The notes: generated from the letters alone by a model not told the origin. Positions 4,058 through 59,305 are shown, counted from the stretch's first letter. The stretch is 64,000 nt of DNA from Giesbergeria sp. (GCA_034676525.1 JAUCCA010000012.1:417033-481032), one strand, 5' to 3'. Made by a program: numbers and translations.

Positions 4058-4522
4058 ATGCAAGCCAATCGCCATCAACCGTCCGCTGAGTGCGTGCGCG
4101 ACATTCACCAAGCCCCGTCGAGTGGTTCAAGCTCGCGCGTGTCGATCGCATCGGCAATCTTTGCCTTGTTTTTCGTGGTGGGCAGCGCACATGCCAAAGG
4201 CCCCGGCACCCCTACGGCGGAACATCTGGGCCTCACACCGGCCTACCTGCAGGGGGACTGGTGCCAAACCTACATCCAGTTTCCCAACAAGCGCGCTGAC
4301 GAGAACGTCCCCTTCCGGTGGGATCCAGATGGCACCTATGCCGGCATTGTTCACCCGGCTAAGGAAATGCAGCCAGGCCTCGTTTACCGCTACAAGCCCG
4401 ACGGAAAGGTGACGCTTGCCTACTTCCCTGGGTTGCTCCTAAAGGTGAAATCGGTCAAGCCAGACGCCTTTGTTTTGCAGCTGTCTGGCGACCTTCACTT
4501 TCGCAGAGGGACCTGCAAATGA
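4058..4522 (+). CDS. Secreted hypothetical protein, lipocalin-like (paralogue 1)
   Basis: Signal peptide ending SAHA. Shares EHLGLTPAYLxGDWC...IQFPN...LVYRYxPDGK...DLHFxRGxCK with the next gene. Confidence 0.75.
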   Translation: MQANRHQPSAECVRDIHQAPSSGSSSRVSIASAIFALFFVVGSAHAKGPGTPTAEHLGLTPAYLQGDWCQTYIQFPNKRADENVPFRWDPDGTYAGIVHPAKEMQPGLVYRYKPDGKVTLAYFPGLLLKVKSVKPDAFVLQLSGDLHFRRGTCK

Positions 4523-4983
4523 CAGAACAAGCAACCTATCAAAGCGGGCTGCGCCCAGCGCTGGTTTGCCTGGCCGCCATGGTGCTGCTGTCCGGCTGCG
4601 GCGAAAGCAAAGACAGCGGGGCTGGCCGTACCGTGTCGAAATCCGCCAAACCAAGCATGGTTGCGGCGGCTGCAGGGCCCACTACAGAGCACCTGGGCCT
4701 CACACCAGCCTACTTGGAAGGCGACTGGTGCAGCACCCATATTCAGTTCCCCAACACGCGATCCACGGAAAACCGCAACCACCGGTTTTCTGCAGACGGC
4801 AGCTTCGCGGCGCAAACAGACCCCAAATCGGAAATGAAGCCGGGGCTGGTTTACCGCTACAGGCCGGATGGAAAGATCGGTATGGACAGTTTGCTCTACC
4901 AAGTGAAGTCGGTGCAACCAGACGATTTTGTTTTGCGCATCGCCGTCAACGACCTTCACTTTCACCGGGGCGCTTGCAAATGA
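4519..4983 (+). CDS. Lipoprotein, lipocalin-like (paralogue 2)
   Basis: Lipobox LLSGC; ATGA overlap with the previous gene; clear paralogy to 4058-4522. Confidence 0.8.
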   Translation: MTEQATYQSGLRPALVCLAAMVLLSGCGESKDSGAGRTVSKSAKPSMVAAAAGPTTEHLGLTPAYLEGDWCSTHIQFPNTRSTENRNHRFSADGSFAAQTDPKSEMKPGLVYRYRPDGKIGMDSLLYQVKSVQPDDFVLRIAVNDLHFHRGACK

Positions 4984-7934: not shown

Positions 7935-9872
7935 TTACGCTTTGGTGTCCAGCTCAGAAGCGATGATGGTTGGCGTGTGTGCTGCGGGCACAAACGCATC
8001 CGAGAAGCAGGCACCTTCTGCCAGACCCTGCGCAAGGAAAGCCGGCACAGCCGCGTCCACCATGCGCACGGAGCCACACAGGTACACCTCGTGACCGCTA
8101 AGGTCAGGGAAATCGGCCAGCATGGCTTCGTGGACCAATCCGGTGCGCCCCTTCCACCCATCGCCTTCGACCGACTCAGACACGACAGGCACCACGCTGA
8201 AGTTGCTGTGGTCGCTTTGCCACTGCTCGCAAAGCGCCAGCATGTACAGATCTTTGCTGTCGCGCACGCCCCAGTACAGGCGCATGGGCCGCGTAACGCC
8301 ACGGGCAAAGGCGTCTTCGACAATGCTCTTGATGGGTGCGAAACCCGTCGCGCCGGCAATAAAGAGAATCGGCTGTGCACCGTCGCGCAGCGTGAACTGA
8401 CCGCGCGGTCCTTCAAACTTGATGGTGTCGCCTACCTGCATGCCCTCAAACACGTGCGTGGTAAAGCGCCCACCCGGCACCAGCCGCACATGCAACTCGA
8501 TAAGTGCGTTGTTCTGCGGTGCATTTGCAAAGGAGAAGGCACGGCGCTCGCCGTTGTCCAGCACGATGTCGATGTACTGGCCGGCGTCAAAGGCCAGGCG
8601 ATCTGCGCCGGGGAGTTCAAGACGCAGGCGCATGACGTCTTCCGCCAAATGCTCCATGTGGACCACGCGCGCCTCGTACTGCGGAATTTCAACAGCGCTG
8701 GCGCCTGTAAACCCATCGACCGAAATGACGACGTCGCCGTTGGGCACCGCGCAGCACATCAGTGCCAGGCCGCGCGCCAACTGTGCATCGGACAGTGCCG
8801 CCTTCTGGTAGGGGCGGTGCTCGACCGTGCCCTGCTCCATGGTGCACATGCACAGCCCGCAGGCGCCGTTGCGGCACTCGTACGGCAAAGCAAGGCCGTC
8901 GCGCAGGCCCGCGTCAAGCAGCGTTTCGCCCGGGCGCAAGCTGAACTCAGCAGCGTTGCCGCCCTCGCCGCGCACGGTGGCGTGCAGGGTGCCTTGACCC
9001 TTTCGGCGGGGCTGCGGCCACAGCGGCAACAAGAGCAGGACGACCGTCAACACAGACACCAGCGCCCACACCCGCCCCAGCGGCCACTCGCTCAGCAGCG
9101 GATACAGCGCAAGCAGGAACCAGTCAAGCTTCACGTCCATCACGGCTTTGGCCAAGTCGGCTGCACCGCCTTGGCTCTGAACGGGCGCTACCAATGCCAT
9201 CACCAGAAACGTGACAACCAAGCCAATGATGGTTTCCCGTGGCGGCGTGGTGCGGGCCTTGGGCACCCGCTGCACGTGAATCCACATGACGAGCAGCACG
9301 ACCAGCGGCAGACCAATGTGCAGGAAAGAAAGCAGCGAGAAGAAGCGGTCGCTCACGCTGTCGGCATACACAAAGTTGCGCATCAGCGTGCCGCTAAACG
9401 GCGGCAGCCAGTCGAGCATTTCGAAGCTGGTAACCGTGACGTACTGCGCCAGCGCGTCCCACGGCAGCATGTAGCCATTGATGCCCGAGGCATAGACCAA
9501 CCAGATCAATGCGACCCCGGTGACCCAAGAGAACCAGCGGAAACCGTGGAAAAGATCAAACGCGAAATACCGCAGCATGTGCAGCATCATGGTAAGCACC
9601 ATGGCGTCCGATGCGTAGCGGTGCACGCTGCGCAGGATGCCGCCCAGCCACCACTGACCGTTGGTCAGCGACTCGACGGAATCGTATGCGCCCGAGACAC
9701 CGGTTTCAAAGAACGCATACAAATACAGCCCGGTACCGCCGACGATCCAGAAAAGAAAGAACGTGATCGAACCGAGGTGGTACAGAGGGTTGATGCGATC
9801 GCCAAAGGCACGATTGAACAGCGCCTCAACGCGCATGAACATCCACTGCAGGATCGATTGGAACGCTTTCAT
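7935..9872 (-). CDS. Fusion: cytochrome b (b/b6-type) + [2Fe-2S] ferredoxin + FAD/NAD(P)H reductase (FNR-like)
   Basis: Four heme-b His (SVHRY..MLHML, FLHIG..WIHVQR). CRNGACGLC...MCC ferredoxin. RAFSFAN, GPRGQF, AGATGFAP and YLCGS FNR motifs. Confidence 0.88.
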   Translation of the reverse strand: MKAFQSILQWMFMRVEALFNRAFGDRINPLYHLGSITFFLFWIVGGTGLYLYAFFETGVSGAYDSVESLTNGQWWLGGILRSVHRYASDAMVLTMMLHMLRYFAFDLFHGFRWFSWVTGVALIWLVYASGINGYMLPWDALAQYVTVTSFEMLDWLPPFSGTLMRNFVYADSVSDRFFSLLSFLHIGLPLVVLLVMWIHVQRVPKARTTPPRETIIGLVVTFLVMALVAPVQSQGGAADLAKAVMDVKLDWFLLALYPLLSEWPLGRVWALVSVLTVVLLLLPLWPQPRRKGQGTLHATVRGEGGNAAEFSLRPGETLLDAGLRDGLALPYECRNGACGLCMCTMEQGTVEHRPYQKAALSDAQLARGLALMCCAVPNGDVVISVDGFTGASAVEIPQYEARVVHMEHLAEDVMRLRLELPGADRLAFDAGQYIDIVLDNGERRAFSFANAPQNNALIELHVRLVPGGRFTTHVFEGMQVGDTIKFEGPRGQFTLRDGAQPILFIAGATGFAPIKSIVEDAFARGVTRPMRLYWGVRDSKDLYMLALCEQWQSDHSNFSVVPVVSESVEGDGWKGRTGLVHEAMLADFPDLSGHEVYLCGSVRMVDAAVPAFLAQGLAEGACFSDAFVPAAHTPTIIASELDTKA

Positions 9873-11329
9873 GAAGAAACCACCATTTCGCTGGCAGCGG
9901 GCAGGCCCGCGCCTGGATGGCGACGCATCGCGCGCACTGCCACCACAATGAACAAAACACCACCCACGATGGCAACCAGACCCCCCAGGCCCATCAACGC
10001 CATGCCTGCGACTTCCGCATTGGAGCGCAAGACCTGCTCAGCGCCCGCCACTTTGCGCTGTACGCCGTAGCCGCCCGACCACACCAATCCAACAATGTGC
10101 ATCAGCTGGCCGAGGCCATAAACCCAAGGCTGTGCAACCGCCAAGCGCCCCTTAGGCGCTGCGTATCCGAGGAATGGCAGCAGGTGGTACACGAGCCCCA
10201 TAAGCGCGAGCGTCACACCGACGATGCAGCCGTGGTAGTGCGCAGGGATGCGCACATTGCTGCCGCTGATGAAGATCCCGATCACCCCGCCGGCACCAAA
10301 CAGCAATATCGAAGACAGCACGGCAGCGCGCAGCGGGTGTTGCGTGTCGCGTGTGAGCGGCAAGCGGTACAGCGCCACGACCACCGCCAACGCCACCGGC
10401 ACGATGGCGGTGCCGCCGCCTGCGCGCATCGCCCACGTCAACAGCGCGCGGTGTTCCACCGAGCTGATGTCGTAGGCAAGGTAGGCCCAAGGCGTCACAA
10501 ACACGCCCACCAATGCCAACGCGAACATAAACAAAGTGACACGCGGACTCAGCCGCAAGGTCGCGCCGCAGGCATTCGCCAGCCACAGCCACCCCACCAA
10601 CATGAGCAGCGTCCAGGTGAATTGCAGCGCGTGGCCCCCACCCCAAAACAAAATCTCGTAATACGCTTTGCCGGTCAGCGAGAGCGGCAATTGCACAAAC
10701 GACCAGCCAAACGCGAGGAGCGCGACCACTGTGGCCACCGCTGCCGCGCCCAAGCCAAAGCCCAGCGCACCTCGGCCATCAAACGCCGTACCGAGGCGTG
10801 GCGCGGCCAAGATGCCGCGCAGCGCGAGCACACCGACACCCAGACCAAAAACCACAAGACCACCGAGGAACATCGGTGAGCGCAACACGGGAATGTAATT
10901 GGCCATGATCGGCTCGCCCGCGTTCAGGAAGGGCGCGAGCGTCATGGCGGCTGTGCCGATGGCACAGATCCAAAGCGCAGCCCACCCCCAACGCAGACCC
11001 TGGGCGGTGCCGTACAGACTCCAGAGCAGGCCCGCCATCGCCATGAACCACACGAGGACCGACAGGTCCACATGCAGCACCAAGGAAACATGAAAAAAGT
11101 CGGCTGCAGGTAGCAGCCGGTTTACGCCCGGTGTACGCGAGAGCACCAGCAGAATGGAAAAGAGGCCAGAGCCCACCAGCGCCACTAGGCCAAGCCACAA
11201 CCAGCCTCGTGCCAAGCTGCGGCGCGCATCCTGCGGGACGGCAAGCGAATAGTCTGCCGCGGCTGAGGCGGGCACGGGCCTAGCAGACCCGCCGGCGACA
11301 CCAATGGAAGACGGAGCGACCGCGCTCAT
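9869..11329 (-). CDS. Divergent heme-copper oxidase subunit I-like membrane protein lacking the helix VII His-His pair
   Basis: Multi-TM. LVLHVDLS (helix II His), FWGGGHALQF (helix VI His) and IPAHYHG (helix X HxH) are kept; the HH pair aligns to AY. Confidence 0.75.
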   Translation of the reverse strand: MSAVAPSSIGVAGGSARPVPASAAADYSLAVPQDARRSLARGWLWLGLVALVGSGLFSILLVLSRTPGVNRLLPAADFFHVSLVLHVDLSVLVWFMAMAGLLWSLYGTAQGLRWGWAALWICAIGTAAMTLAPFLNAGEPIMANYIPVLRSPMFLGGLVVFGLGVGVLALRGILAAPRLGTAFDGRGALGFGLGAAAVATVVALLAFGWSFVQLPLSLTGKAYYEILFWGGGHALQFTWTLLMLVGWLWLANACGATLRLSPRVTLFMFALALVGVFVTPWAYLAYDISSVEHRALLTWAMRAGGGTAIVPVALAVVVALYRLPLTRDTQHPLRAAVLSSILLFGAGGVIGIFISGSNVRIPAHYHGCIVGVTLALMGLVYHLLPFLGYAAPKGRLAVAQPWVYGLGQLMHIVGLVWSGGYGVQRKVAGAEQVLRSNAEVAGMALMGLGGLVAIVGGVLFIVVAVRAMRRHPGAGLPAASEMVVSS

Positions 11330-11829
11330 AGCAACACGATGCCTCCGCGTTCGGCATCGAAGTCAATGACCAGCACTTGTGAAGGTTTGAGATTCACAGT
11401 CGCTTCGTGCTGGTGGTTAAACCCGTCGGTCGCGTTGGTGTCGCGCATACGCACCGTAATGCGGTGCGTGCCAGCGCCGACCTCCAGGCGCTTGTAGACA
11501 GTGGAAGCACCATCGCGCGAGAGCCCTGACGGTGCGGCGGTGTGGCGATAGGCAGGCTTACCGTCGATGTCGAGCTCCACCGTCACGGAAGCACGTTCGC
11601 GCTCGCACTTGAGTGGCGCGCGCATGTTGGGCGCCAACTTGGCGAGCTCCTCTGCCGTATAGGGGCGGCACTCTGCAACGCGCTGCCCGTGGTGGACGAA
11701 GCTCAGCTTGATGAGCGCCTCATCCGCCGCGAGCGGCGAGAACGCTGGCCACTGCGAAAAAACGCCTACCAGCAGCGCAAAACTGCCGTACAGCAGTGCT
11801 TGGCCTGCGAGGACGAAAACGCGATTCAT
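11326..11829 (-). CDS. Membrane-anchored hypothetical protein (one TM, beta-rich soluble domain, 2 Cys)
   Basis: 4-nt overlaps with both neighbours; N-terminal hydrophobic helix; HHG and C..C motifs. Confidence 0.8.
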   Translation of the reverse strand: MNRVFVLAGQALLYGSFALLVGVFSQWPAFSPLAADEALIKLSFVHHGQRVAECRPYTAEELAKLAPNMRAPLKCERERASVTVELDIDGKPAYRHTAAPSGLSRDGASTVYKRLEVGAGTHRITVRMRDTNATDGFNHQHEATVNLKPSQVLVIDFDAERGGIVLL

Positions 11830-13490
11830 GCAAAAGACTCCGAATGGACAAAAGATTCTGCCGTGCGCACGCGCAGGGCCTTGAGCGCGGCCGCGAGCGC
11901 GGCCTCATCACCAGCATCGACGGCAACCAGCGACCAAGCTTCCTTCGGTACGCTGGCACGCAGGCGTGGCTCACGTTGACCGTTAAGACGCTCGCGCGTC
12001 CAGCGCTCACCCAGCCGAAATTCGCAGCCGCCTTCACGACAAGTCGCCACCAGCACGCCAGTGGCGCCTGCACGCAAGGCGTATTCAAGAAACGATGGCG
12101 GCAGCAAACCTGTGCACACCAGCGGCAGCGTCAAGACATCGTCCGCGGCAACCCCGGCCAGCTGCGCGCCTTGCGCACAGCCAAACACCACAAAGCGCTG
12201 AGACCCTGAAAGTGCCGCAAGACCAGCCAGCATCTGCTGGCGCAATGCATCAATCGGCCATTGCGGCATGTCGATACCAGTATGCAGCACCTGCGCGCTG
12301 CGAAACGGCGTGGACGATGGGCAAGAGCCCACGCAAATGCCGCAACTGGCACACAAGTCGCTGCGCACCTGCGCCAGCTCCATGCCCACACGGCCGTTGG
12401 GATGCGGCACCATGGTGATCGCCGCGTAAGGGCAGTCTTCGACGCAGCGCCGGCAGCCGCTGCAGTGGTCGGGGTTGACCTCAGCGACCGCTTGCTCCAG
12501 CGCCAGTGGACGCCACGCGGTATGCGAAGTGGCGGGTGCGCCCAAATTTGACAGAAGCGCCGGCGCTACTGCCAACGCGGGGCGGCGACGCAGACCCAAC
12601 CATGGCAAAGCCACAAGCACAGCCATCACCAGCCCGAGCAGGCCCCACACCGCTCCCGCGGATGTGGCTGCGGTCAGGGGATGGATGAAAAGCAGCCACC
12701 AGTCGTACGCCAGCGCTTGCGGCACGGTGCTCAAGTCTGCGGGACCCTGACTGCGCACTGGCAAGAAGGCCGCGAGCATAAGCATGGCCAATAGCGTGCC
12801 AATTGCCAGCGTGCGCGGCGGGAACACTGAAGCGCGACTAATGCGCTGCACGTGGAACCACAAACCAAACACCAGCAAAAGGGGCACGCCCAAGTGCACA
12901 AAGACGAACAGCGAGAACAGCCGGTCGTTCAACTGCGTGCCACTCAGAAAATTGCGCGCCAGCGGCGAGGCCAGCCCGGGCAGTACATCAAGCCACTCGG
13001 CTGTCGCTGTGGCGGAAAACTGCCCGAGGCGGTCCCAGTTCAGCCAGAAGCCGCCAATCGCAGAAACGAAAAGGAGCGGCAGCAGCGGGACGCCCGTCAG
13101 CCAAGACGCTGCGCGAAAACTCCGAAATCGCCCCAACATCCATTCGCGCAGCACGTGCGCCAGCACCACCACGACCATGGCGTCGGCGCTGTAGCGGTGC
13201 AGGCCGCGCAGCAGGCTGCCCCACTGCCTAGGCTCGCGCGACAACGCATCAATTGATTGGTAGGCGCCACTGGCTGAGGTGTCGAGCACGGCATACAGAA
13301 TCACTCCGCTGAACACCAGAAGCCACAGCAACCAGAAACCCAGCGCACCCAGATGCTTGAGAGGATTGCCACTGACTCCCGCCAGTGCGTCGAATCCGTG
13401 CTCGCACGCGCGCCAAAGCCTTGCCGACGCGTGCGGCGCCACCGCAATGGGGAGCGAACTGGAAGAGGCAGCCATATGCGGCGAATTCAC
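11826..13490 (-). CDS. Fusion: cytochrome b + 2x[4Fe-4S] ferredoxin + MvhD/FlpD-like [2Fe-2S] domain
   Basis: Four heme His (GLHRY..LAHVL, FVHLG..WFHVQR). CSGCRRCVEDCP and CASCGICVGSCP. C-terminal VFGC...VCTG...GATGVLVATCREGGCEF matches the MvhD pattern. Confidence 0.85.
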   Translation of the reverse strand: MNSPHMAASSSSLPIAVAPHASARLWRACEHGFDALAGVSGNPLKHLGALGFWLLWLLVFSGVILYAVLDTSASGAYQSIDALSREPRQWGSLLRGLHRYSADAMVVVVLAHVLREWMLGRFRSFRAASWLTGVPLLPLLFVSAIGGFWLNWDRLGQFSATATAEWLDVLPGLASPLARNFLSGTQLNDRLFSLFVFVHLGVPLLLVFGLWFHVQRISRASVFPPRTLAIGTLLAMLMLAAFLPVRSQGPADLSTVPQALAYDWWLLFIHPLTAATSAGAVWGLLGLVMAVLVALPWLGLRRRPALAVAPALLSNLGAPATSHTAWRPLALEQAVAEVNPDHCSGCRRCVEDCPYAAITMVPHPNGRVGMELAQVRSDLCASCGICVGSCPSSTPFRSAQVLHTGIDMPQWPIDALRQQMLAGLAALSGSQRFVVFGCAQGAQLAGVAADDVLTLPLVCTGLLPPSFLEYALRAGATGVLVATCREGGCEFRLGERWTRERLNGQREPRLRASVPKEAWSLVAVDAGDEAALAAALKALRVRTAESFVHSESFA

Positions 13491-14347
13491 ATTCGGCGAG
13501 GTCGCCCACGGTTGCGCCGACTCGCCCGCAATTCATTGATGAAGAACACGATCATGACAATGAAAAAAGTGATGCCACCTGCCACCTGGATCGGTAAGGT
13601 GTAGTCCGCTCGGTACTCGCCTGTCTTGATGTCGTACACCGTGCACACGAGGCGAATGCGCTCGAACAGCGTGTCGAGCACGCGGTCATGGAAAACAGGA
13701 GAGCCAGCCAGAAGCAGCCGAAGGGGTTCGCCCAGATCGGCGGCATTGAGTTGCTCGCCATAGATTTGCCGCACGATGCGGCCTTGCGAATCCACCAGGC
13801 TGAGCTGCAGAACGTGGTCAAAACCGGCAGGCGTAGATTTGTACAAAAAACCAAAATCGCGCGTCAACGCCGGCACGTCTGCCGCGCGGGGGCTAAGGAA
13901 TTCCCAGTTGTCTCTGCCGATACGAAACTGCGCGGCAAATGCCTTGAGCGCTTCTGGAGAATCCTCTGGCTGGTTAAAGCCAATACTCACGACATTGAAT
14001 TGGCCCGGGCCGACACTCTTTTGCAATGCGTCGACGGCAATCTGCAGCGCACGCGTTGTGCCGGGACAGATTTGGAAACAACCGGTGTAGATGAAGCTCA
14101 CCAGCAGGGGTTTGCCGCGATAGCTTGAAAGCGACACCGTGCGGCCCGAGCGGTCGCGGAACAAATGCTCGCCCAGCTCCCTCCCGACTGCGTCTTCGCT
14201 CGCGCGCAATGCGAGGCGCGCGTCAAGCCCGAGCGTGGCGGCCTGCTCAGAGCCGTGCGTGATCGCTTGCGCGGGCAGCGACAGCAGGCATGCCCACCCC
14301 ACCACCCACACCAGCACCAGGGCAGTCAGGGAGCGGGATCGACACAT
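13487..14347 (-). CDS. SCO1/SenC-family copper chaperone
   Basis: FIYTGCFQICP (CxxxC), FDHVL His, thioredoxin-like fold and C-terminal TM. Confidence 0.9.
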   Translation of the reverse strand: MCRSRSLTALVLVWVVGWACLLSLPAQAITHGSEQAATLGLDARLALRASEDAVGRELGEHLFRDRSGRTVSLSSYRGKPLLVSFIYTGCFQICPGTTRALQIAVDALQKSVGPGQFNVVSIGFNQPEDSPEALKAFAAQFRIGRDNWEFLSPRAADVPALTRDFGFLYKSTPAGFDHVLQLSLVDSQGRIVRQIYGEQLNAADLGEPLRLLLAGSPVFHDRVLDTLFERIRLVCTVYDIKTGEYRADYTLPIQVAGGITFFIVMIVFFINELRASRRNRGRPRRM

Positions 14348-14360
14348 AGCAAACTCTCGT

Positions 14361-15260
14361 TCAACGGATCAGGCCGTCCACACAGGCGGCCACGAGCAAG
14401 GTGCTCAATTGGATCAAAGAGGCAAAAAACGCCGACATCGCGTGCGCACGCGTCACTTCGCGCGCCAGCACCCAAGATTTGTACACAAAATGCGCACCGC
14501 CGAAGAATGCGCCAACGGCATACACAGGGCCTGCGCCGTAGAACACAGGAAGCAAAGACGCCACCAACAGTGCGACGGTGCTGACGAACACAATGTGCGC
14601 TGCCCGCTCGTTGCCTACCACCACCGGCAACATTGGCACACCGGCTTGCGCATAGTCGGCGCGGTTGGCAATCGCCAGCGCCCAAAAGTGCGGCGGCGTC
14701 CAGAGAAACAGCACCAACGCAAGCAGCATCGGCAGCGGCCCCAGCGCAGGATCGACTGCCGCGGCGCCTGCCAACACGGCAAAACTGCCGGCCAAGCCGC
14801 CAATCACGATGTTCATGGAGCTGCGGCGCTTGAGCCACACCGTATACACAAAAGCGTAGAAGAAAGCGCCAAGAAACACATAGACGGCAGCAGCGCCGTT
14901 GAGCACCAACCACGCCGCTGCCACCGACCCCACGAGCATGGCGGCCATCAGCACCAACCACGCGGGGTGGTGTGGCAGCGCGCCGGTGACAAAAGCACGC
15001 CGACGCGTGCGCGCCATTAGATGGTCGCTGTTGTGTTCAAAGTACTGATTGAACGCGCCTGCACTGGCGGAAGCCACCAACACAGACAGCGCCAACACCA
15101 GCACCTGAAGCCAGCTGGGCGCTGGGCCAGGTGTTACCACCATGCCCACCAGCGCCGTCACCATGATGAGCGAGCCTATGCGCAGCTTGAACAACGAGAT
15201 GACGTCGCGCGTGCGCTGCACGGCCAGGCTGCGCGCGGGTTGAATCGTGTCGGTGCCCAT
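14361..15260 (-). CDS. ctaB: Protoheme IX farnesyltransferase (heme o synthase)
   Basis: LFKLRI, NQYFEHNSDHLMARTRRR, YTVWLKRR and LWTPPHFWAL. Start at ATG 15260. Confidence 0.92.
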   Translation of the reverse strand: MGTDTIQPARSLAVQRTRDVISLFKLRIGSLIMVTALVGMVVTPGPAPSWLQVLVLALSVLVASASAGAFNQYFEHNSDHLMARTRRRAFVTGALPHHPAWLVLMAAMLVGSVAAAWLVLNGAAAVYVFLGAFFYAFVYTVWLKRRSSMNIVIGGLAGSFAVLAGAAAVDPALGPLPMLLALVLFLWTPPHFWALAIANRADYAQAGVPMLPVVVGNERAAHIVFVSTVALLVASLLPVFYGAGPVYAVGAFFGGAHFVYKSWVLAREVTRAHAMSAFFASLIQLSTLLVAACVDGLIR

Positions 15261-15274
15261 GGCTTGGCTTTCTT

Positions 15275-17002
15275 TCAGGACATGCCCCACAGCTGGGCGA
15301 GGTACTTCCAGTTGATGAAGTAGTACAGCACGAATGCCACCAGGAACACCATGGCCAGCACGAAGCTTCCAGGTGCTACCAAGCCAGCCGACCCGTAAGT
15401 CTGCGCAGCCGCTGTACGTGCAGTCGGTGGAATCGGCGTGAAGCGTGGACTCACAACACCTTGATCGAGCTTCTTGCCCCACAGCAACGAACCGACCGTG
15501 ATGTAGATGTACAGAGCGCCGCCGGCGATGGCCGCCATACCGCCAATACCTACGAGGCCCATCATCAGATAGGCAGCGCCTGGCCATTCATACGCCAGTG
15601 CCGCGCCGCTGAACGCCATGTCCCAGTGCCTGCGCGAGACGCCCAAGGTGCCGGCACCCATCATGACCAAGCAGAAGAAGTACATCGAGAAACCGAAGAG
15701 GTAAGGCTGAATTTTTGCCAGCCCCGGAGAGATGGTTTCGCGCTTGAACAGCACTGGAATCAGGTAGTACGTGAGCGCCATGAACGTCAGCGTCGTGCCG
15801 ACCACCACAGTTGCATGGAAGTGACCAGGCACATAAATGGTGTTGTGAATGATCAGGTTGAGCTGCTCGGTACCCATCATGACGCCCGAAATACCGCCCA
15901 GGAAGCCAAAGCCGACGATGGAGATGAACACACCTGAGAACGTCGGGTTGCCCCAAGGCGCTTTGCGCAGCCACTCAAACAGGCCCTTGTTGTAGCCCTT
16001 GGCGCGTTGCGCCACTTCCATGGCACCGGGAACGGTCAAGCCGTGGATCATCGAAGCCAACACAGCGAAATACATGAAGTAGCTGGTGTTAACGATTTTC
16101 CACTCGGTACTCACACCCGGGTCGGCAAGCAGGTGGTGCGCACTAGCAAGCTGCAAAAACAAGATGTAAAGCAGGAAGGCGCCGCGACTGACGCGCTCGG
16201 ACATGGGCTTGGCGCCAAAACAAACCGCAGCTACCAGGTACCAGATCGAGATGTGCGCCGCTACGTTAATCTGCTGCGACGAGTGACCGAAGGCCCACCA
16301 GATGGTCCGGTAGATCAGCGGGTCGACGTTGTCGATCAGGCCAAGCGCCAGAAGATAGGTGGGGATCAGGATGATCGCGCCAGAGACGATGGTGAACACT
16401 GCAATGATGGCCGCAACGATGGCGCCGAACGTCACCAGCGGCACCGAGCCCTGATAGGTCTTGTCGCGCTTGGCTACCACCAGCGTGCCAAAGAACACGA
16501 AGCAAGCGATCAATGCGCCGACCGCAAAGAGGATCAGACCCAGGTAAAACCAAGGCGTGGCCATCATGGGCACATAAGACGTCATCATCACGCTGGAGCC
16601 GCCGCGGAACACGTCGATGTTGTTCATGACGGCGCCGACCAGCATGAGCGCGTAGGCCAACCATGCCATTTTGGGCGTGGCGATTCGACAGCGCAGCAGC
16701 GTTGAGGCACAGAAATACAGCACCGCGACCTCAAAGAAGATCATCCAGAAGATGAGCATGTTGATGCCGTGCGCGGTAAGCACCAGATAGAACGTGTCGG
16801 CGGCCAGCCAGTGCACGGCGGGCCAGCGCGTCAGCACCACGCCGATGGCGAGGATGCCGCCAACGAGCAAGGCGACCACAGCGGTCACCGCGTTGAAGAT
16901 CATCAGACGTTCGGCGCTGCGTTCGAACTGAAGGCCCGAACGCGGGCAAGTACGGTAGGTGGTGGCGCTGCCTGAGGCGAGCGCAGCAGAAGTTGCGGCC
17001 AT
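15275..17002 (-). CDS. Heme-copper oxidoreductase subunit I, B-family-derived, eNOR-type nitric oxide reductase
   Basis: All six His present (TAHG, GHSSQQIN, SAHH, GHFH). The H+4 Tyr of O2 reductases is Gln (codon 16271-16273). No cytochrome c subunit; partner is a CuA subunit II. Confidence 0.82.
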   Translation of the reverse strand: MAATSAALASGSATTYRTCPRSGLQFERSAERLMIFNAVTAVVALLVGGILAIGVVLTRWPAVHWLAADTFYLVLTAHGINMLIFWMIFFEVAVLYFCASTLLRCRIATPKMAWLAYALMLVGAVMNNIDVFRGGSSVMMTSYVPMMATPWFYLGLILFAVGALIACFVFFGTLVVAKRDKTYQGSVPLVTFGAIVAAIIAVFTIVSGAIILIPTYLLALGLIDNVDPLIYRTIWWAFGHSSQQINVAAHISIWYLVAAVCFGAKPMSERVSRGAFLLYILFLQLASAHHLLADPGVSTEWKIVNTSYFMYFAVLASMIHGLTVPGAMEVAQRAKGYNKGLFEWLRKAPWGNPTFSGVFISIVGFGFLGGISGVMMGTEQLNLIIHNTIYVPGHFHATVVVGTTLTFMALTYYLIPVLFKRETISPGLAKIQPYLFGFSMYFFCLVMMGAGTLGVSRRHWDMAFSGAALAYEWPGAAYLMMGLVGIGGMAAIAGGALYIYITVGSLLWGKKLDQGVVSPRFTPIPPTARTAAAQTYGSAGLVAPGSFVLAMVFLVAFVLYYFINWKYLAQLWGMS

Positions 17003-17017: not shown

Positions 17018-17557
17018 CTATTTGACGTAGAGGCGCCCCACCATCGTGTGGTGGTTGATGCCGCAAAACTCGTTACAAACGATGGAGAACTGACCCGATT
17101 GATTGGGCGTAATCTTCATCACGTGCTCATACCCAGGCACCACCTGGATGTTGATGTTGGTCGGCTGCAGAGAGAAGCCGTGGTTGTAATCCATAGAAGT
17201 CATGTGCAGCTTGTAGGTTTTGTCTTTTTCAAGCTCAAGAATGGGCCACCAGGACCACAGACGCCCGATGAGATAGATGTCGCTGCCCTCAGGCGGATGC
17301 ACGACGGGAATCTTTTCGTCGGTCTCGGTGCGGACGGTGTACTTGTCGACCATGGCCTGCGTCTTGGCAGCAAACATGTCCGGCGTCGTCTTGTAGGTTT
17401 CGGTGGAGAGGTTCTGCTTGCCGTAGATGTGCCAGCCGACCATCATGAAGAACATGACCATGCACCAAGCAAAGGCGATGGCGATCCAGAGGCCTTCGAC
17501 GCGGTCCAGGGGATGTTTCCACCAGAGCCGTTCGGCGGGGGGAAGAATTGCGCTCAT
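17018..17557 (-). CDS. CuA-containing subunit II (single TM, ba3/eNOR-type)
   Basis: DYNHGF and CNEFCGINHHTM CuA ligands; one N-terminal TM helix. Confidence 0.92.
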   Translation of the reverse strand: MSAILPPAERLWWKHPLDRVEGLWIAIAFAWCMVMFFMMVGWHIYGKQNLSTETYKTTPDMFAAKTQAMVDKYTVRTETDEKIPVVHPPEGSDIYLIGRLWSWWPILELEKDKTYKLHMTSMDYNHGFSLQPTNINIQVVPGYEHVMKITPNQSGQFSIVCNEFCGINHHTMVGRLYVK

Positions 17558-17573: not shown

Positions 17574-17729
17574 TTACTTGGCCATGGGAATGGTCAAGAT
17601 TTCGATCACCCCCCACAGTGAGTACACGACCATCGGGACCATCACCCCGATGAACAGTAACAAAAAAGGGTTGTCGAGCAGCTGCTGAATCATCGGCACC
17701 TTCTCGTTTTCGTCGTTATCGTGTTCCAT
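17574..17729 (-). CDS. Small single-TM protein (subunit IIa-like), 51 aa
   Basis: GAGGAG RBS before ATG 17729; one hydrophobic helix; first gene of the operon. Confidence 0.75.
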   Translation of the reverse strand: MEHDNDENEKVPMIQQLLDNPFLLLFIGVMVPMVVYSLWGVIEILTIPMAK

Positions 17730-17894: not shown

Positions 17895-18860
17895 ATGCAC
17901 GCACCTTCCTCCCCTGACCCCGCGCCGCATCGGCGCCTTTTTTTGCGCCGTGCGGCCTGGATTTGTGCTGTTTTGGTGCTGGTGGTGACAAGCGCCAGCG
18001 CTTTTTTGCGTCAATCTGGCGCCGGTCTGGGTTGCACACCGTGGCCCGCCTGCCACGCCAGCGCGGCGCGCGCCGACGTCGAACGCCCTGCGCCCAGCGC
18101 GGCTGAGCACACGGCTCGCGCCGTGCACCGAGTCGTCGCTTCGTCCTTATTGCTTCTGCTGATGGCCATGACGGCCTTTGCCTGGACAGGCAAGCCGCGG
18201 TTGGCGGTAGAAGGGCGCGTGGTCTTGGTGGCCCTCGGGCTGGTGCTGTTCCTTGCGGTGCTTGGCGTCTTCACTGCCAAGGCTCGCGCGCCAGCGATCA
18301 CCCTTGGCAATCTGTTGGGAGGCCTGCTGCTGTTTGCCGCGTGTGTCCGGCTCGCCGTTACCGCGTGTGCCATCGCCGAACCGCAGCGCAAACACCTGCA
18401 GCGCTGGGCGCTCGTGTCCGGCACCCTGTTGCTCGTGCAGATCGGTTTGGGCGCACTGATCAGCGCCGGGTATGCAGGGTTGAGCTGCCCCGAGCTAAGC
18501 AGCTGCAGCCCAGGCGCCCATGCTTGGGAAGCGTTGAGCCTGCTTCACCCACCCGGAGATGGGGCTGGAATGCCCGGTTATGCGGAGGGCGTTGGCATCC
18601 AACTCCTGCACCGCCTCGCGGCGTTGGCAGTGATGGTGGCGCTTGCAGCATTGGCAAGGTCCGCGTGGCAGGCCCGGCGGCGAGTCGAGGCGGCTGCGCT
18701 CGGGGTGCTCGCTGTACTTCAAGTGGGTTTGGGTGCGACGCTGGTGCTCAGTCAATTGCCGCTGGGCGCAGCGCTTGCGCACAACCTGGTTGCCGCGCTG
18801 CTGCTGGGAACGGTGGCGGCACTCATCGCAGCATCCGCGCGGGTGTCGCCTCGGTTGTGA
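17895..18860 (+). CDS. ctaA: Heme A synthase (CtaA/COX15 family)
   Basis: SGAGLGCTPWPAC, HRVVA, AGLSCPELSSC, HRLAA and AHNL; 8-TM pattern; divergent from the oxidase operon. Confidence 0.82.
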   Translation: MHAPSSPDPAPHRRLFLRRAAWICAVLVLVVTSASAFLRQSGAGLGCTPWPACHASAARADVERPAPSAAEHTARAVHRVVASSLLLLLMAMTAFAWTGKPRLAVEGRVVLVALGLVLFLAVLGVFTAKARAPAITLGNLLGGLLLFAACVRLAVTACAIAEPQRKHLQRWALVSGTLLLVQIGLGALISAGYAGLSCPELSSCSPGAHAWEALSLLHPPGDGAGMPGYAEGVGIQLLHRLAALAVMVALAALARSAWQARRRVEAAALGVLAVLQVGLGATLVLSQLPLGAALAHNLVAALLLGTVAALIAASARVSPRL

Positions 18861-57619: not shown

Positions 57620-59305
57620 TCAGGTGGCCCCCGCCATCTCTTGCGCCGCCTGCGCGCCTTCAGACGAATGCCCCACCTGCACCGGCTTGAAGCTGTGCGC
57701 GCTGGCCAGGGGCCAGTAGGTGCGAAACACGTTGTGCTGCCCATCCAGCGCGCCCAGCAAGGCGCCCGGCTTCACCTGCATCACCAGGTTGCTCAGCAGC
57801 CGCACCTCGGTATCCGATATGCGCCGCACGATGTGGTGCGCGGTGATCTGGCGCGGGTGGTCCAGCCCGGCGGCCTGCACCAGTTCCTGCAGCGCGTGCA
57901 GCGTGCTGCGGTGAAAGTTGTGCACCCGCTCGGCCTTGTCGGGCACCACCAGCGCTTGCTGGCGCAACGGGTCTTGGGTGGTCACGCCCGTGGGGCACTT
58001 GCCGGTGTGGCAGGACTGCGCCTGAATGCAGCCCAGCGCCATCATGAAACCGCGCCCCGCATTGCACCAGTCGGCGCCCAGCGCCATCATGCGGGCCAGG
58101 TCAAACGCGGATATCACCTTGCCGGCGCAGCCCAGCTTGATGCGGCCCCGCAGGCCCACGCCCACCAGCGTGTTGTGCACCAGCAGCAGCCCTTCCTGCA
58201 AGGGTGCGCCCACATGGTCGATGAACTCCACCGGGGCCGCGCCGGTGCCGCCCTCGGCCCCGTCCACCACGATGAAGTCGGGGGTAATGCCGGTCTCTTG
58301 CATGGCCTTGACGATGGCAAACCACTCCCATGGGTGGCCCAGGCAGAACTTGAAGCCAGTGGGTTTGCCGCCCGATAGGTCGCGCAGCCGGGCAATGAAA
58401 TGCATCAGCTCCACCGGCGTGGAAAACGCGCTGTGCGACGACGGCGAAATGCAGTCCACACCCATGGGCACGCCGCGCGCCGCCGCAATCTCGGCCGTCA
58501 CCTTGGGCGCCGGCAGCACGCCGCCGTGGCCGGGCTTGGCGCCCTGGCTCAGCTTGATTTCGATCATCTTGACCTGCGGGTCGGTGGCGTTCTTGGTGAA
58601 CCGCTCGGCGTTGAAGCTGCCGTCGTCGTTGCGGCAACCAAAGTAGCCCGAGCCAATTTCCCAGATCAGCGCGCCGCCATGCTCGCGGTGGTACTGCGAG
58701 ATGGAGCCCTCGCCCGTGTCGTGCGCAAAGTTGCCCGCCTTGGCGCCCTTGTTCAGCGCCAGGATGGCGTTGGCCGACAGCGCGCCAAAGCTCATGGCCG
58801 AAATGCTGAACACGCTGGCGTCGTACGGCTGCGCGCAGCGCTCACCAATCGTGATGCGAAAGTCGTGGTTGGCCAGCACCGTGGGCTGCATGGAATGGTT
58901 GATCCATTCGTACCCGGCGTCCGACACAGTGAGCTGCGTGCCAAACGGCCGCACATCGGTATCGCCCTTGGCGCGCTGGTACACCAGCGAGCGCTGCGCG
59001 CGCGAAAACGGCGTCGCTTCCGAGTCGCCCTCAATGAAGTACTAGCGCATTTCCGGGCGGATGAATTCAAGCAAAAACCGCAAATGCCCAATCACCGGGT
59101 AGTTGCGCAAGATGGCGTGTCGCGTTTGCCGCAGGTCGTGCACGCCCACTGCAACCAGAGCGGCAAACACCACAACCGACAGCCACGCCAGCCAGAACGT
59201 CGGCGCGGCGATCAATCCCGCAATGCTGGCCAGCAGGGCCAGGGCGCACACGACAAAGGCGCTGTAGCGCAGCGGGGGGCGGGTAGGTTTCTGGACGGTG
59301 GGAAT
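57620..59305 (-). pseudogene. FMN-binding glutamate synthase family protein with an internal amber stop and an ATT start
   Basis: HAILRNYPVIGHLRF...IRPEMR*YFIE with TAG at 59044-59042 where Gln is expected; EIKLSQGAKPGHGG; CHTGKCPTGV. AAGGAG RBS is followed 6 nt later by ATT (59305), not ATG. Confidence 0.85.

What the first reader, a model, noticed from the sequence alone, without database searches (positions are those of the whole stretch)
9869..11329. Subunit-I paralogue that keeps the heme ligands but has lost the binuclear-site metal ligands
Seen: aligned to the neighbouring subunit I, His is retained in helix II (LHVD), helix VI (GHALQF) and helix X (AHYHG), while SAHH becomes PWAY and the H+4 position is Phe. 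Established: the helix VII His pair ligates CuB/FeB in all catalytic heme-copper enzymes. Inference: it can bind two hemes but not a normal binuclear centre. It may be a heme chaperone, a heme-modifying enzyme, an NO-binding buffer or an electron-relay subunit. Automatic pipelines would probably mislabel it as a cbb3 or COX1 subunit.
Basis: partly seen in the sequence, partly recalled or inferred. Interest (0 to 1): 0.75.

Follow-up and report, generated by a model that had tools for sequence, protein, structure and literature searches.

The report
Copper-site-less oxidase paralogue paired with haem-A synthase
This gene encodes a relative of the catalytic subunit of respiratory oxidases that keeps both haem pockets but has lost its copper/iron site; the family is widespread and untested, usually sits beside the haem A synthase gene, and so probably helps make or deliver haem a.

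Summary
Window 9869-11329 (-) encodes a 486-aa, 12-helix member of the haem-copper oxidase (HCO) subunit-I superfamily. His86, His233, His364 and His366 are 98-100% conserved across the family. The helix-VII His-His pair is absent family-wide and the cross-link Tyr is Phe.

One correction: His233 is the third CuB ligand, not a haem ligand. So one of three metal ligands survives.

The family is large (633 clusters at 50% identity) and forms its own clade. Its nearest catalytic relative is eNOR subunit I. NCBI labels it "cbb3-type cytochrome c oxidase subunit I", a label the tests here do not support.

The neighbouring enzyme is an eNOR (Gln at the Tyr position). The gene is translationally coupled into an operon: eNOR II/I, ctaB, senC, a cytochrome b–FeS fusion, a 167-aa protein, this gene, then a cytochrome b–[2Fe-2S]–FNR fusion.

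The new finding is that the family also occurs in genomes without eNOR. In 39 of 62 genomes a haem A synthase gene (ctaA) lies within 1 kb. Genomes with two paralogues have two such pairs.

Best reading, inferred only: a non-catalytic two-haem partner of CtaA in maturation of haem-a enzymes. A 2026 preprint mentions an "eNOR scaffold protein of unknown function", probably this gene.

The parts
9869..11329 (-). CuB-less HCO subunit-I paralogue (486 aa, 12 TM helices). His86 is the helix II low-spin haem ligand. His233 is the surviving helix VI CuB-type His, in the motif FWGGGHALQF. Ala282-Tyr283 replace the His-His pair. His364 and His366 are in helix X. Arg425-Lys426 are the haem-propionate anchors.
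11326..11829 (-). p167: an N-terminal TM helix plus a beta-sandwich domain, with invariant Cys54 and Cys75 and a PNMRAP..C.RER motif. It has no Pfam or NCBIfam family. 4-bp overlaps couple it translationally to both neighbours.
   Evidence: present in 78 of 80 related loci; no significant PDB match
11826..13490 (-). Fusion protein: a di-haem cytochrome b (N-terminal b/b6 type), 2x[4Fe-4S] ferredoxin and an MvhD/FlpD-like domain.
   Evidence: 79 of 80 loci
7935..9872 (-). Fusion protein: a di-haem cytochrome b, a plant-type [2Fe-2S] ferredoxin and an FAD/NAD(P)H reductase. The soluble part resembles oxygenase reductases of the BenC/MmoC type.
   Evidence: BenC 212 bits, MmoC 193 bits; 75 of 80 loci
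13487..14347 (-). Sco1/SenC copper chaperone.
14361..15260 (-). Haem O synthase CtaB. The ATG at 15260 is the likely start; a GTG at 15290 is also possible.
   Evidence: (TIGR01473, 260 bits)
15275..17002 (-). eNOR subunit I. All six canonical His are present, in the motif GHSSQQ, with Gln at the position of the cross-link Tyr.
   Evidence: diagnostic residue from Table A4 of PMC8756737
17018..17557 (-). eNOR subunit II, a cupredoxin with an intact CuA motif (CNEFCGINHHTM).
17574..17729 (-). 51-aa single-TM ORF with an AGGAGA ribosome-binding site, the first gene of the operon.
   Evidence: a 50-aa gene sits in the same position in L081
17895..18860 (+). Divergent haem A synthase (CtaA/COX15, 106-109 bits), transcribed head-to-head from the operon.
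   Evidence: (same position in 32 of 80 loci)

Best explanation
The gene encodes a non-catalytic, two-haem member of a distinct clade of the haem-copper oxidase superfamily. The clade probably arose from an eNOR/B-type subunit I. It kept the low-spin and high-spin haem pockets and one distal His, and it lost two CuB/FeB ligands, the cross-link Tyr and any recognisable proton channel.

Its conserved partner across the family is haem A synthase (CtaA), often together with haem O synthase (CtaB). I therefore read it as an accessory of haem-a cofactor supply for haem-a enzymes: eNOR in this window, aa3-type oxidases in other genomes.

The mechanism I think most likely is a subunit-I mimic. It docks to CtaA as real subunit I does, takes newly made haem a (or haem As) into its two conserved pockets, and buffers or hands it on. 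The distal His233/Gln236 pocket would keep the bound haem unreactive.

In this operon it is made together with p167 and two cytochrome b–FeS/flavin fusion proteins. These may keep the system reduced or feed electrons to the O2-dependent CtaA reaction.

Shown here: the residue pattern, the fold, the clade and the gene linkage. Inferred: haem binding, contact with CtaA, and the direction of any haem or electron transfer.
For: Residues and fold:
- The four His are 98-100% conserved, with Arg425-Lys426, Trp229, Gly232 and Gln236. There is no conserved ligand in helix VII.
- The model is confident and matches the HCO fold.
- Residues aligned to the ba3 K-channel positions are hydrophobic, and no chain of conserved polar residues exists.

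Separate clade:
- The family profile scores members at 400-580 bits, eNOR I at 130-178 bits, and A/C-type subunits not at all.
- In the tree the family is one side of a branch with SH-aLRT 100.

Linkage to CtaA:
- ctaA is adjacent in 15 of 28 divergent loci and in 14 of 29 loci with only 1.5-kb flanks.
- Comparing the coordinates by eye, ctaA lies within 1 kb in 39 of 62 family-positive genomes, in at least 9 GTDB families.
- 60 of those 62 genomes have a ctaA somewhere.
- The paralogue and ctaA overlap by 4 bp in L143 and L126.
- Five genomes with two paralogues (G069, G137, G181, G197, G285) have two paralogue-ctaA pairs. In G069 one pair is canonical, beside an A-type cox cluster, and one is divergent, at the end of an eNOR operon.

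Independence from eNOR:
- The family occurs in genomes with no eNOR I, for example the complete genomes G009 and G045.

Fusions and neighbours:
- One member is fused to CtaB (P0243, L081).
- Several are fused or adjacent to a periplasmic TPR domain (P0133, P0200, P0253, P0257, P0266, L083, L139, L140).
- One is fused to a cytochrome b domain (P0121).

Literature:
- eNOR carries haem As in both sites, and many eNOR operons hold a CtaA homologue (PMC11214002).
Against: - There is no experimental datum on this family. Haem binding, haem type and any contact with CtaA are all inferred.
- About a third of family-positive genomes have ctaA elsewhere, and two of 62 have none detected (G102, G218).
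- The invariant distal pocket (Trp229, Gly232, His233, Gln236) is more than a passive haem holder would seem to need. It hints at ligand chemistry or a sixth haem ligand.
- Within the sNOR/eNOR-cluster relatives (L001-L080), the strict co-translation with two redox fusion proteins fits an electron-transfer role at least as well.
- Some eNOR-less genomes encode an orphan CuA subunit-II-like protein next to the paralogue (L143). That also suggests electron input.
- From my own recollection, B. subtilis CtaA makes haem A in E. coli without any such partner.
Confidence: 0.45

Rival explanations
1. The protein is an electron relay or reductase component. Its two haems would form a wire carrying electrons to the O2-activating haem A synthase, or to another membrane oxygenase. 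Electrons would come from NAD(P)H through the cytochrome b–[2Fe-2S]–FNR fusion, or from a CuA protein in other genomes. This would be the bacterial counterpart of the ferredoxin reductase/ferredoxin pair (Arh1/Yah1) needed by mitochondrial Cox15.
For: - The gene is translationally coupled to two di-haem cytochrome b fusion proteins in the window and in at least 75 of 80 related loci.
- The soluble part of one fusion is most similar to oxygenase reductases: BenC 212 bits, MmoC 193 bits.
- A cytochrome b::paralogue fusion exists (P0121).
- An intact CuA subunit-II-like gene sits directly upstream of the paralogue-ctaA pair in eNOR-less genomes.
- CtaA needs electrons and O2 (PMC11214002).
Against: - Many loci, for example L124, L125, L090 and L082, hold only ctaA and the paralogue, with no donor gene nearby.
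- Lateral electron transfer out of the buried haems of subunit I has no precedent that I know of.
- The TPR and CtaB fusions fit an assembly factor better.
Confidence: 0.25
2. The protein is a structural ('scaffold') or electron-input subunit of the eNOR complex itself. Together with the two cytochrome b fusions it would form a supercomplex linking NAD(P)H or quinol to NO reduction, as suggested for Ferrigenium straubiae.
For: - It is co-operonic with eNOR II/I in the window and in about 73 of 80 related loci, and also in L081, L128 and L137.
[quoted passage not shown] It proposes a supercomplex with the cytochrome b proteins and reports four proteins of that operon (which four is ambiguous in the text) in a proteome.
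Against: - The family occurs in many genomes with no eNOR I, where it pairs with ctaA beside A-type cox genes.
- From my own recollection, the purified eNORs of Magnetospirillum and Rhodothermus are two-subunit enzymes.
- I could not verify that the preprint's 'scaffold' gene is this family.
Confidence: 0.15
3. The protein is a catalytic or ligand-binding haem-only enzyme. The high-spin haem with its His233/Gln236/Trp229 distal pocket would bind or transform O2, NO or H2O2, acting as a sensor, scavenger or oxygenase.
For: - The distal-pocket residues are strictly invariant: Trp229, Gly232 and His233 in 116 of 116 sequences, Gln236 in 115 of 116.
- From general knowledge, a His/Gln distal pair is typical of haem proteins that stabilise bound diatomic ligands.
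- The gene sits in an NO-reductase operon.
Against: - No proton pathway is conserved and no second metal site is evident.
- There is no output domain.
- The dominant linkage is to haem-a biosynthesis genes rather than to NO or O2 stress genes.
Confidence: 0.1

Closest known systems
eNOR subunit I (B-family-derived NO reductase; the Rhodothermus marinus enzyme is characterised in PMC11214002), including the copy 4 kb upstream in this window
   Same: - It is the nearest catalytic relative by profile score (130-178 bits) and by tree position.
- Both have the 12-TM fold and share the helix II, VI and X His.
- Both have Gln at H+3 after the helix-VI His (GH.SQQ against GH.LQF).
- The two genes share an operon.
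   Different: - The paralogue lacks the helix-VII His-His pair.
- It has Phe, not Gln, at the Tyr position.
- It is about 90 residues shorter.
- It forms a separate clade (SH-aLRT 100).
- In the window no CuA subunit is encoded directly beside it.
- It also occurs without eNOR.
Thermus thermophilus cytochrome ba3 subunit I (PDB 1EHK, 3S8F and related entries)
   Same: - It is the best solved-structure match by sequence profile (E 1e-19) and by fold (TM 0.72).
- The haem ligands and the propionate-anchoring basic pair align.
   Different: - The paralogue has one of three CuB His and no Tyr237.
- K-channel positions are hydrophobic.
- Val236 is replaced by an invariant Gln.
gNOR and NOD, HCO families with altered active-site ligands (PMC11214002)
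   Same: They are HCO members in which a canonical metal-ligand His is replaced.
   Different: gNOR changes one His to Asp and is still predicted to be catalytic. That paper calls it the first HCO family to replace an active-site His. This family has lost two His with no conserved replacement.
[quoted passage not shown]
   Same: The operon content matches: eNOR II, eNOR I, haem O synthase, sco1, and the two cytochrome b fusion genes. This is probably the same gene family.
   Different: - The preprint gives no sequence features or function.
- I could not check that the gene is the same.
- The preprint does not note that the family occurs outside eNOR operons or that it pairs with ctaA.
Surf1/Shy1 haem-a chaperones, and the Cox15–Yah1–Arh1 system of mitochondria
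   Same: These are functional analogies only. Surf1 is thought to store haem a and hand it from haem A synthase to subunit I (PMC9145763). From my own knowledge, Cox15 needs a ferredoxin and a ferredoxin reductase.
   Different: - There is no homology to Surf1.
- Surf1 co-exists with the paralogue in L093.
- The ferredoxin/FNR module here is fused to a membrane cytochrome b.

Membership tests
Haem-copper oxidoreductase superfamily, subunit I (Pfam PF00115) | 12-TM subunit-I fold and a profile match above the curated cut-off | tested here: met
   COX1 scores 41.9 bits against a cut-off of 34.8. The AF2 model has 12 helices with pLDDT 91.7. Foldseek gives TM 0.72 to ba3.
Haem-copper oxidoreductase superfamily, subunit I (Pfam PF00115) | Bis-His ligands of the low-spin haem (helix II His and the second helix X His) and the proximal His of the high-spin haem | tested here: met
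   His86, His366 and His364 are 98-99% conserved and align to ba3 His72, His386 and His384.
Haem-copper oxidoreductase superfamily, subunit I (Pfam PF00115) | Three His ligands of CuB/FeB (helix VI His and the helix VII His-His pair) | tested here: not met
   Only His233 is present. Positions 282/283 are Ala-Tyr in the window, and His occurs there in at most 6 of 116 family members.
Haem-copper oxidoreductase superfamily, subunit I (Pfam PF00115) | Cross-linked active-site Tyr (a feature of O2 reductases) | tested here: not met
   Position H+4 is Phe237: Phe in 89 of 116, Tyr in 11 of 116.
Haem-copper oxidoreductase superfamily, subunit I (Pfam PF00115) | Conserved proton channel from the cytoplasmic side | tested here: inconclusive
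   No chain of conserved polar residues was found, and positions aligned to ba3 Tyr244/Tyr248 are hydrophobic.
eNOR subunit I | Gln at the position of the cross-link Tyr (Hemp & Gennis 2008, as tabulated in PMC8756737) | tested here: not met
   The motif is GHALQF, with Gln at H+3 and Phe at H+4. The neighbouring true eNOR I has GHSSQQ.
eNOR subunit I | Placement inside the eNOR clade, or a comparable profile score | tested here: not met
   It forms a separate clade with SH-aLRT 100. eNOR I scores 130-178 bits against the family profile, while members score 400-580 bits.
cbb3-type cytochrome c oxidase subunit I (CcoN), the public annotation | A match to the CcoN equivalog model, ccoO/ccoP neighbours, and a place in the C-family clade | tested here: not met
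   No NCBIfam hit at E <= 0.01, TIGR00780 included. The neighbours are p167 and cytochrome b fusions. The C-family is a separate clade.
'eNOR scaffold protein' (Ferrigenium preprint) | A gene of unknown function in the eNOR operon, alongside haem O synthase and sco1 | tested here: met
   The operon content is identical in the window and in about 73 of 80 related loci.
'eNOR scaffold protein' (Ferrigenium preprint) | Sequence identity of the named IMG gene with this family | not testable with these tools
   The IMG record was not available, and the preprint gives no sequence features.
Surf1-type haem-a chaperone | SURF1 domain | tested here: not met
   There is no SURF1 hit. A separate SURF1 gene co-exists with the paralogue in L093. 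Any similarity is in function only.

The most novel reading that the evidence does not exclude
The CuB-less paralogue and CtaA would form a two-component haem A synthase system. The paralogue would be the missing physiological partner of bacterial CtaA, acting as electron donor, as O2-poising site, or as first acceptor of haem a. The cytochrome b–[2Fe-2S]–FNR fusion would be the membrane-bound bacterial equivalent of the mitochondrial Arh1/Yah1 supply to Cox15. Each haem-a enzyme type (aa3, eNOR) would then have its own dedicated paralogue-CtaA pair.
Probability: 0.2. Interest if true: 0.8.

Novelty: new variant of a known kind. Interest (0 to 1): 0.6.

Why it matters
HCO subunit I is among the best-studied membrane enzymes, and its six His ligands are treated as near-universal. 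The 2024 survey of the superfamily presents gNOR, with one His changed to Asp, as the first exception.

This work documents a large clade that keeps the haem pockets and discards the catalytic metal site. It was found in about a quarter of the genomes sampled from this phylum. Public records, if their taxonomic labels are right, also place it in Nitrospirota and Bacteroidota.

The tight pairing with haem A synthase, duplicated pair by pair where two haem-a enzymes co-exist, gives a testable handle on two open questions. One is how haem a leaves CtaA and reaches subunit I in bacteria. The other is where CtaA gets its electrons.

There is also a practical point. The gene is annotated as a cbb3 or COX1 oxidase subunit, which inflates counts of terminal oxidases in genome surveys.

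Tried and rejected
- I first labelled the neighbouring enzyme sNOR, from the AOB 'norSY-senC-orf1' literature. I rejected this because the Tyr-position residue is Gln, the eNOR signature, not Asn.
- A single-sequence search of PDB sequences found nothing. Only the family profile reached ba3.
- I looked for substitute metal ligands in helix VII/VIII. Tyr283 is only 53% conserved. Thr298 and Met301 look like the generic HCO helix-VIII 'FT..M' motif; that comparison rests on my recollection of the bovine sequence.
- I tested whether p167 is a degenerate cupredoxin or subunit II. Foldseek finds only weak generic beta-sandwich matches (best E 0.009, a CARDB domain), so this is not supported.
- A search for an FNR/NNR box (TTGATNNNNATCAA, one mismatch allowed) found none near the operon. 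The single window hit, at 58554, is at chance level.
- The first tree included wrongly chosen ORFs with very long branches. I rebuilt it without them.
- Model coordinates are not exposed, so I could not measure distances around His233 or search for cavities.
- Reviews of oxidase assembly and of CtaA evolution (PMC9145763, PMC8239418) returned no match for the search terms I used for such a paralogue.
Full report
**Observation**

Window 9869-11329 on the minus strand is an intact 486-codon ORF whose ATG overlaps the stop of the upstream gene by 4 bp. It passes Pfam COX1 weakly, at 41.9 bits against a cut-off of 34.8, and matches no NCBIfam model.

BLASTP against the subunit I encoded 4 kb upstream (15275-17002 -) gives 25% identity, E 9e-14.
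- LHVD against TAH-G
- GGGHALQF against AFGHSSQQ
- PWAY against SAHH
- PAHYHG against PGHFHA

The helix-VI His (His233) is the third CuB ligand, not a haem ligand. The protein therefore keeps three haem ligands and one of three CuB/FeB ligands.

**Family-wide pattern**

The protein belongs to a large family.
- More than 5,400 clusters at 90% identity share words with it.
- An exhaustive search finds 1,514 clusters at 50% identity, 633 of them at E <= 1e-30.

In alignments of 127 and 116 members at 30-88% identity:
- His86, His233, His364 and His366 are 98-100% conserved.
- Trp229, Gly232 and Tyr145 are invariant.
- Asn144, Pro147, Glu225, Gln236, Thr298, Met301, Arg425 and Lys426 are at least 92% conserved.
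- The two helix-VII positions are hydrophobic and Tyr/Phe, with His in 6 of 116.
- Position H+4 is Phe in 89 of 116.

The family profile reaches T. thermophilus ba3 subunit I at E 1e-19. It aligns His86 to His72, His233 to His233, His364/366 to His384/386, and Arg425-Lys426 to the propionate-binding Arg449-Arg450.

The AlphaFold model is confident (pLDDT 91.7, pTM 0.92, 12 helices). It matches ba3 and other subunits I at TM about 0.7.

No chain of conserved polar residues corresponds to a proton channel. The sequence therefore argues for two haems, one distal His, no binuclear metal site and no proton-coupled catalysis. None of this has been tested biochemically.

**Place in the superfamily**

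An HMM of the family scores members at 400-580 bits and eNOR subunits I at 130-178 bits. A- and C-type subunits from the same genomes do not score at E < 1e-3.

In a maximum-likelihood tree with eNOR, A-type and C-type subunits, the family is one side of a branch with SH-aLRT 100. An earlier tree contained mis-picked ORFs and was discarded.

The family shares an invariant Gln at H+3 with eNOR I (GH[SP]SQQ against GH.LQF). It is thus a separate clade whose nearest catalytic relative is eNOR.

Public records label members 'cbb3-type cytochrome c oxidase subunit I' or 'cytochrome c oxidase subunit 1'. The CcoN tests fail: there is no TIGR00780 hit, there are no ccoO/ccoP neighbours, and the C-family is a different clade.

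**The operon in the window**

On the minus strand the gene order is:
1. a 51-aa TM ORF (17574-17729)
2. a CuA subunit II (17018-17557)
3. subunit I (15275-17002)
4. haem O synthase (14361-15260)
5. Sco1/SenC (13487-14347)
6. cytochrome b + 2x[4Fe-4S] + FlpD-like fusion (11826-13490)
7. p167 (11326-11829)
8. the paralogue (9869-11329)
9. cytochrome b + [2Fe-2S] + FAD/NAD(P)H reductase fusion (7935-9872)

The last five genes are linked by 4-bp overlaps. A divergent ctaA (17895-18860) is transcribed head-to-head from the operon start.

Subunit I has Gln at the position of the cross-link Tyr. That is the eNOR signature; sNOR has Asn there (Table A4 of PMC8756737).

The whole cluster recurs in the 80 closest species-level loci. 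The paralogue is in 80, cytb-FeS in 79, p167 in 78, cytb-FNR in 75, and eNOR I in about 73. Gene order follows two variants.

A 2026 preprint on Ferrigenium straubiae describes the same operon. [quoted passage not shown] The 'scaffold' gene is probably this family, but I could not verify that.

**Wider context, the new element**

I sampled the family beyond its close relatives.

Of 401 genomes from the phylum, 95 reach E <= 1e-30 against the family profile (33 of 212 genera; one of the 95 reaches that level only through its eNOR I). Many carry two paralogues.

Adjacency of ctaA to the paralogue:
- In 28 divergent loci, ctaA is immediately adjacent in 15. CtaB is adjacent or fused in 5, and a TPR protein is fused or adjacent in 4.
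- In 29 further loci with only 1.5-kb flanks, ctaA is adjacent in 14.
- I compared the coordinates by eye. A ctaA lies within 1 kb of a paralogue in 39 of 62 family-positive genomes, in at least 9 GTDB families. It lies within 7 kb in 2 more, including this one.
- 60 of the 62 genomes have a ctaA somewhere.

In L143 and L126 the paralogue and ctaA overlap by 4 bp.

Several genomes have no eNOR I at all, only an A-type oxidase (some also a C-type one) plus the paralogue. They include the complete genomes G009 and G045.

Five genomes with two paralogues (G069, G137, G181, G197, G285) hold two paralogue-ctaA pairs. In G069:
- one pair has a canonical CtaA (about 364 bits) and sits beside an A-type cox cluster
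- the other has a divergent CtaA (about 120 bits, like the window's 106 bits) and sits at the end of an eNOR operon

Fusions point the same way:
- paralogue::CtaB (P0243)
- paralogue::TM helix::TPR (P0133, P0200, P0253, P0257, P0266)
- cytochrome b::paralogue (P0121)

**Interpretation**

The conserved partner of the family is haem A synthase, not eNOR as such. eNOR carries haem As in both sites, and its operons often hold a CtaA homologue (PMC11214002). A-type oxidases carry haem a.

I therefore read the protein as an accessory of haem-a supply. The option I favour is a subunit-I mimic that docks to CtaA and takes up or buffers haem a/As for delivery. This fits three things:
- the ancestral interaction between subunit I and the haem-a machinery
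- the loss of catalytic features
- the TPR and CtaB fusions

The main rival is an electron relay to the O2- and electron-requiring CtaA reaction. In its favour are the co-translated cytochrome b fusions, one of which has a BenC/MmoC-like oxygenase-reductase module. So are the cytochrome b fusion (P0121) and an orphan CuA subunit-II-like gene upstream of the pair in eNOR-less genomes.

A structural role inside eNOR is hard to reconcile with the eNOR-less genomes. A haem-only catalytic or sensing role is suggested only by the invariant His233/Gln236/Trp229 pocket.

All functional statements here are inferences from sequence and gene linkage.

**Side results**

p167 is a single-TM protein with a confidently modelled beta-sandwich domain (pLDDT 94.6) and two invariant Cys. 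It has no significant structural match, so it is not shown to be a degenerate subunit II. No FNR-type box lies near the operon.

**Earlier notes of this scan**

Two follow-up notes on other genomes (e1-4147767, e1-3887260) reached the same general reading: a copper-site-less paralogue beside eNOR and haem-a genes. The second pointed to the Ferrigenium preprint. That led me to re-test the neighbour and correct my sNOR label to eNOR.

A first-reader note on this same operon (e1-5269578) calls the last four genes a two-cytochrome-b redox module beside an eNOR-type enzyme, which my results support.

**Limits**

Noticed in passing
window 7935-9872 (-) and 11826-13490 (-): Two unusual fusion proteins have an N-terminal di-haem cytochrome b (b/b6 type). 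One carries a [2Fe-2S] ferredoxin plus an FAD/NAD(P)H reductase of the BenC/MmoC type. The other carries 2x[4Fe-4S] plus an MvhD/FlpD-like domain. Both are conserved with the paralogue in at least 75 of 80 related loci.
   Followed up: partly
window 11326-11829 (-): p167 is a family with no Pfam or NCBIfam model. It has a TM helix and a beta-sandwich domain, with invariant Cys54/Cys75, Arg70/77/79 and a PNMRAP..C.RER motif. The model is confident but has no significant PDB neighbour. It is found only where the cytochrome b fusions are present.
   Followed up: partly
window 17574-17729 (-); L081 248-400: A roughly 50-aa single-TM ORF with a strong ribosome-binding site opens the eNOR operon, upstream of subunit II. 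A similar small gene sits in the same place in a distant eNOR operon.
   Followed up: no
L143 10471-11004 (-); L126 5651-6211 (+): Genomes with no eNOR subunit I still encode an eNOR-II-like cupredoxin with an intact CuA motif (CGEFCG.GH..M). It lies directly upstream of the paralogue-ctaA pair in L143 and about 3 kb upstream in L126. Its partner is unknown.
   Followed up: partly
window 17895-18860 (+); G069:C1:99852-100799, G137:C6:44122-45057, G181:C23, G197:C152, G285:C39: The CtaA next to eNOR operons is a divergent class, scoring 106-120 bits to Pfam COX15-CtaA against 320-380 bits for canonical copies. In the window's copy I saw no His in the fourth TM segment. It may be specialised for haem As.
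   Followed up: no
G082:C87:30838-32121 (L133), G154:C162 (L139), G218:C199 (L140); P0133, P0200, P0253, P0257, P0266: A second paralogue type of 600-740 aa scores 275-400 bits to the family profile. It carries an extra TM helix and a periplasmic TPR domain. It often co-exists with the short type in one genome. G218 has this type but no detectable ctaA.
   Followed up: partly
window 4058-4522 (+) and 4519-4983 (+): Two tandem 154-aa ORFs overlap by 4 bp. They encode clearly similar proteins (…EHLGLTPAYL.GDWC…YRY.PDGK…) that look like duplicated small secreted proteins or lipoproteins.
   Followed up: no
L082, L084, L090, L124, L125, L095-L097, L099: In one lineage (GTDB family f39 and relatives) the head-to-head ctaA-paralogue pair is always flanked by a class I/II aminotransferase gene. 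This is probably lineage synteny.
   Followed up: no
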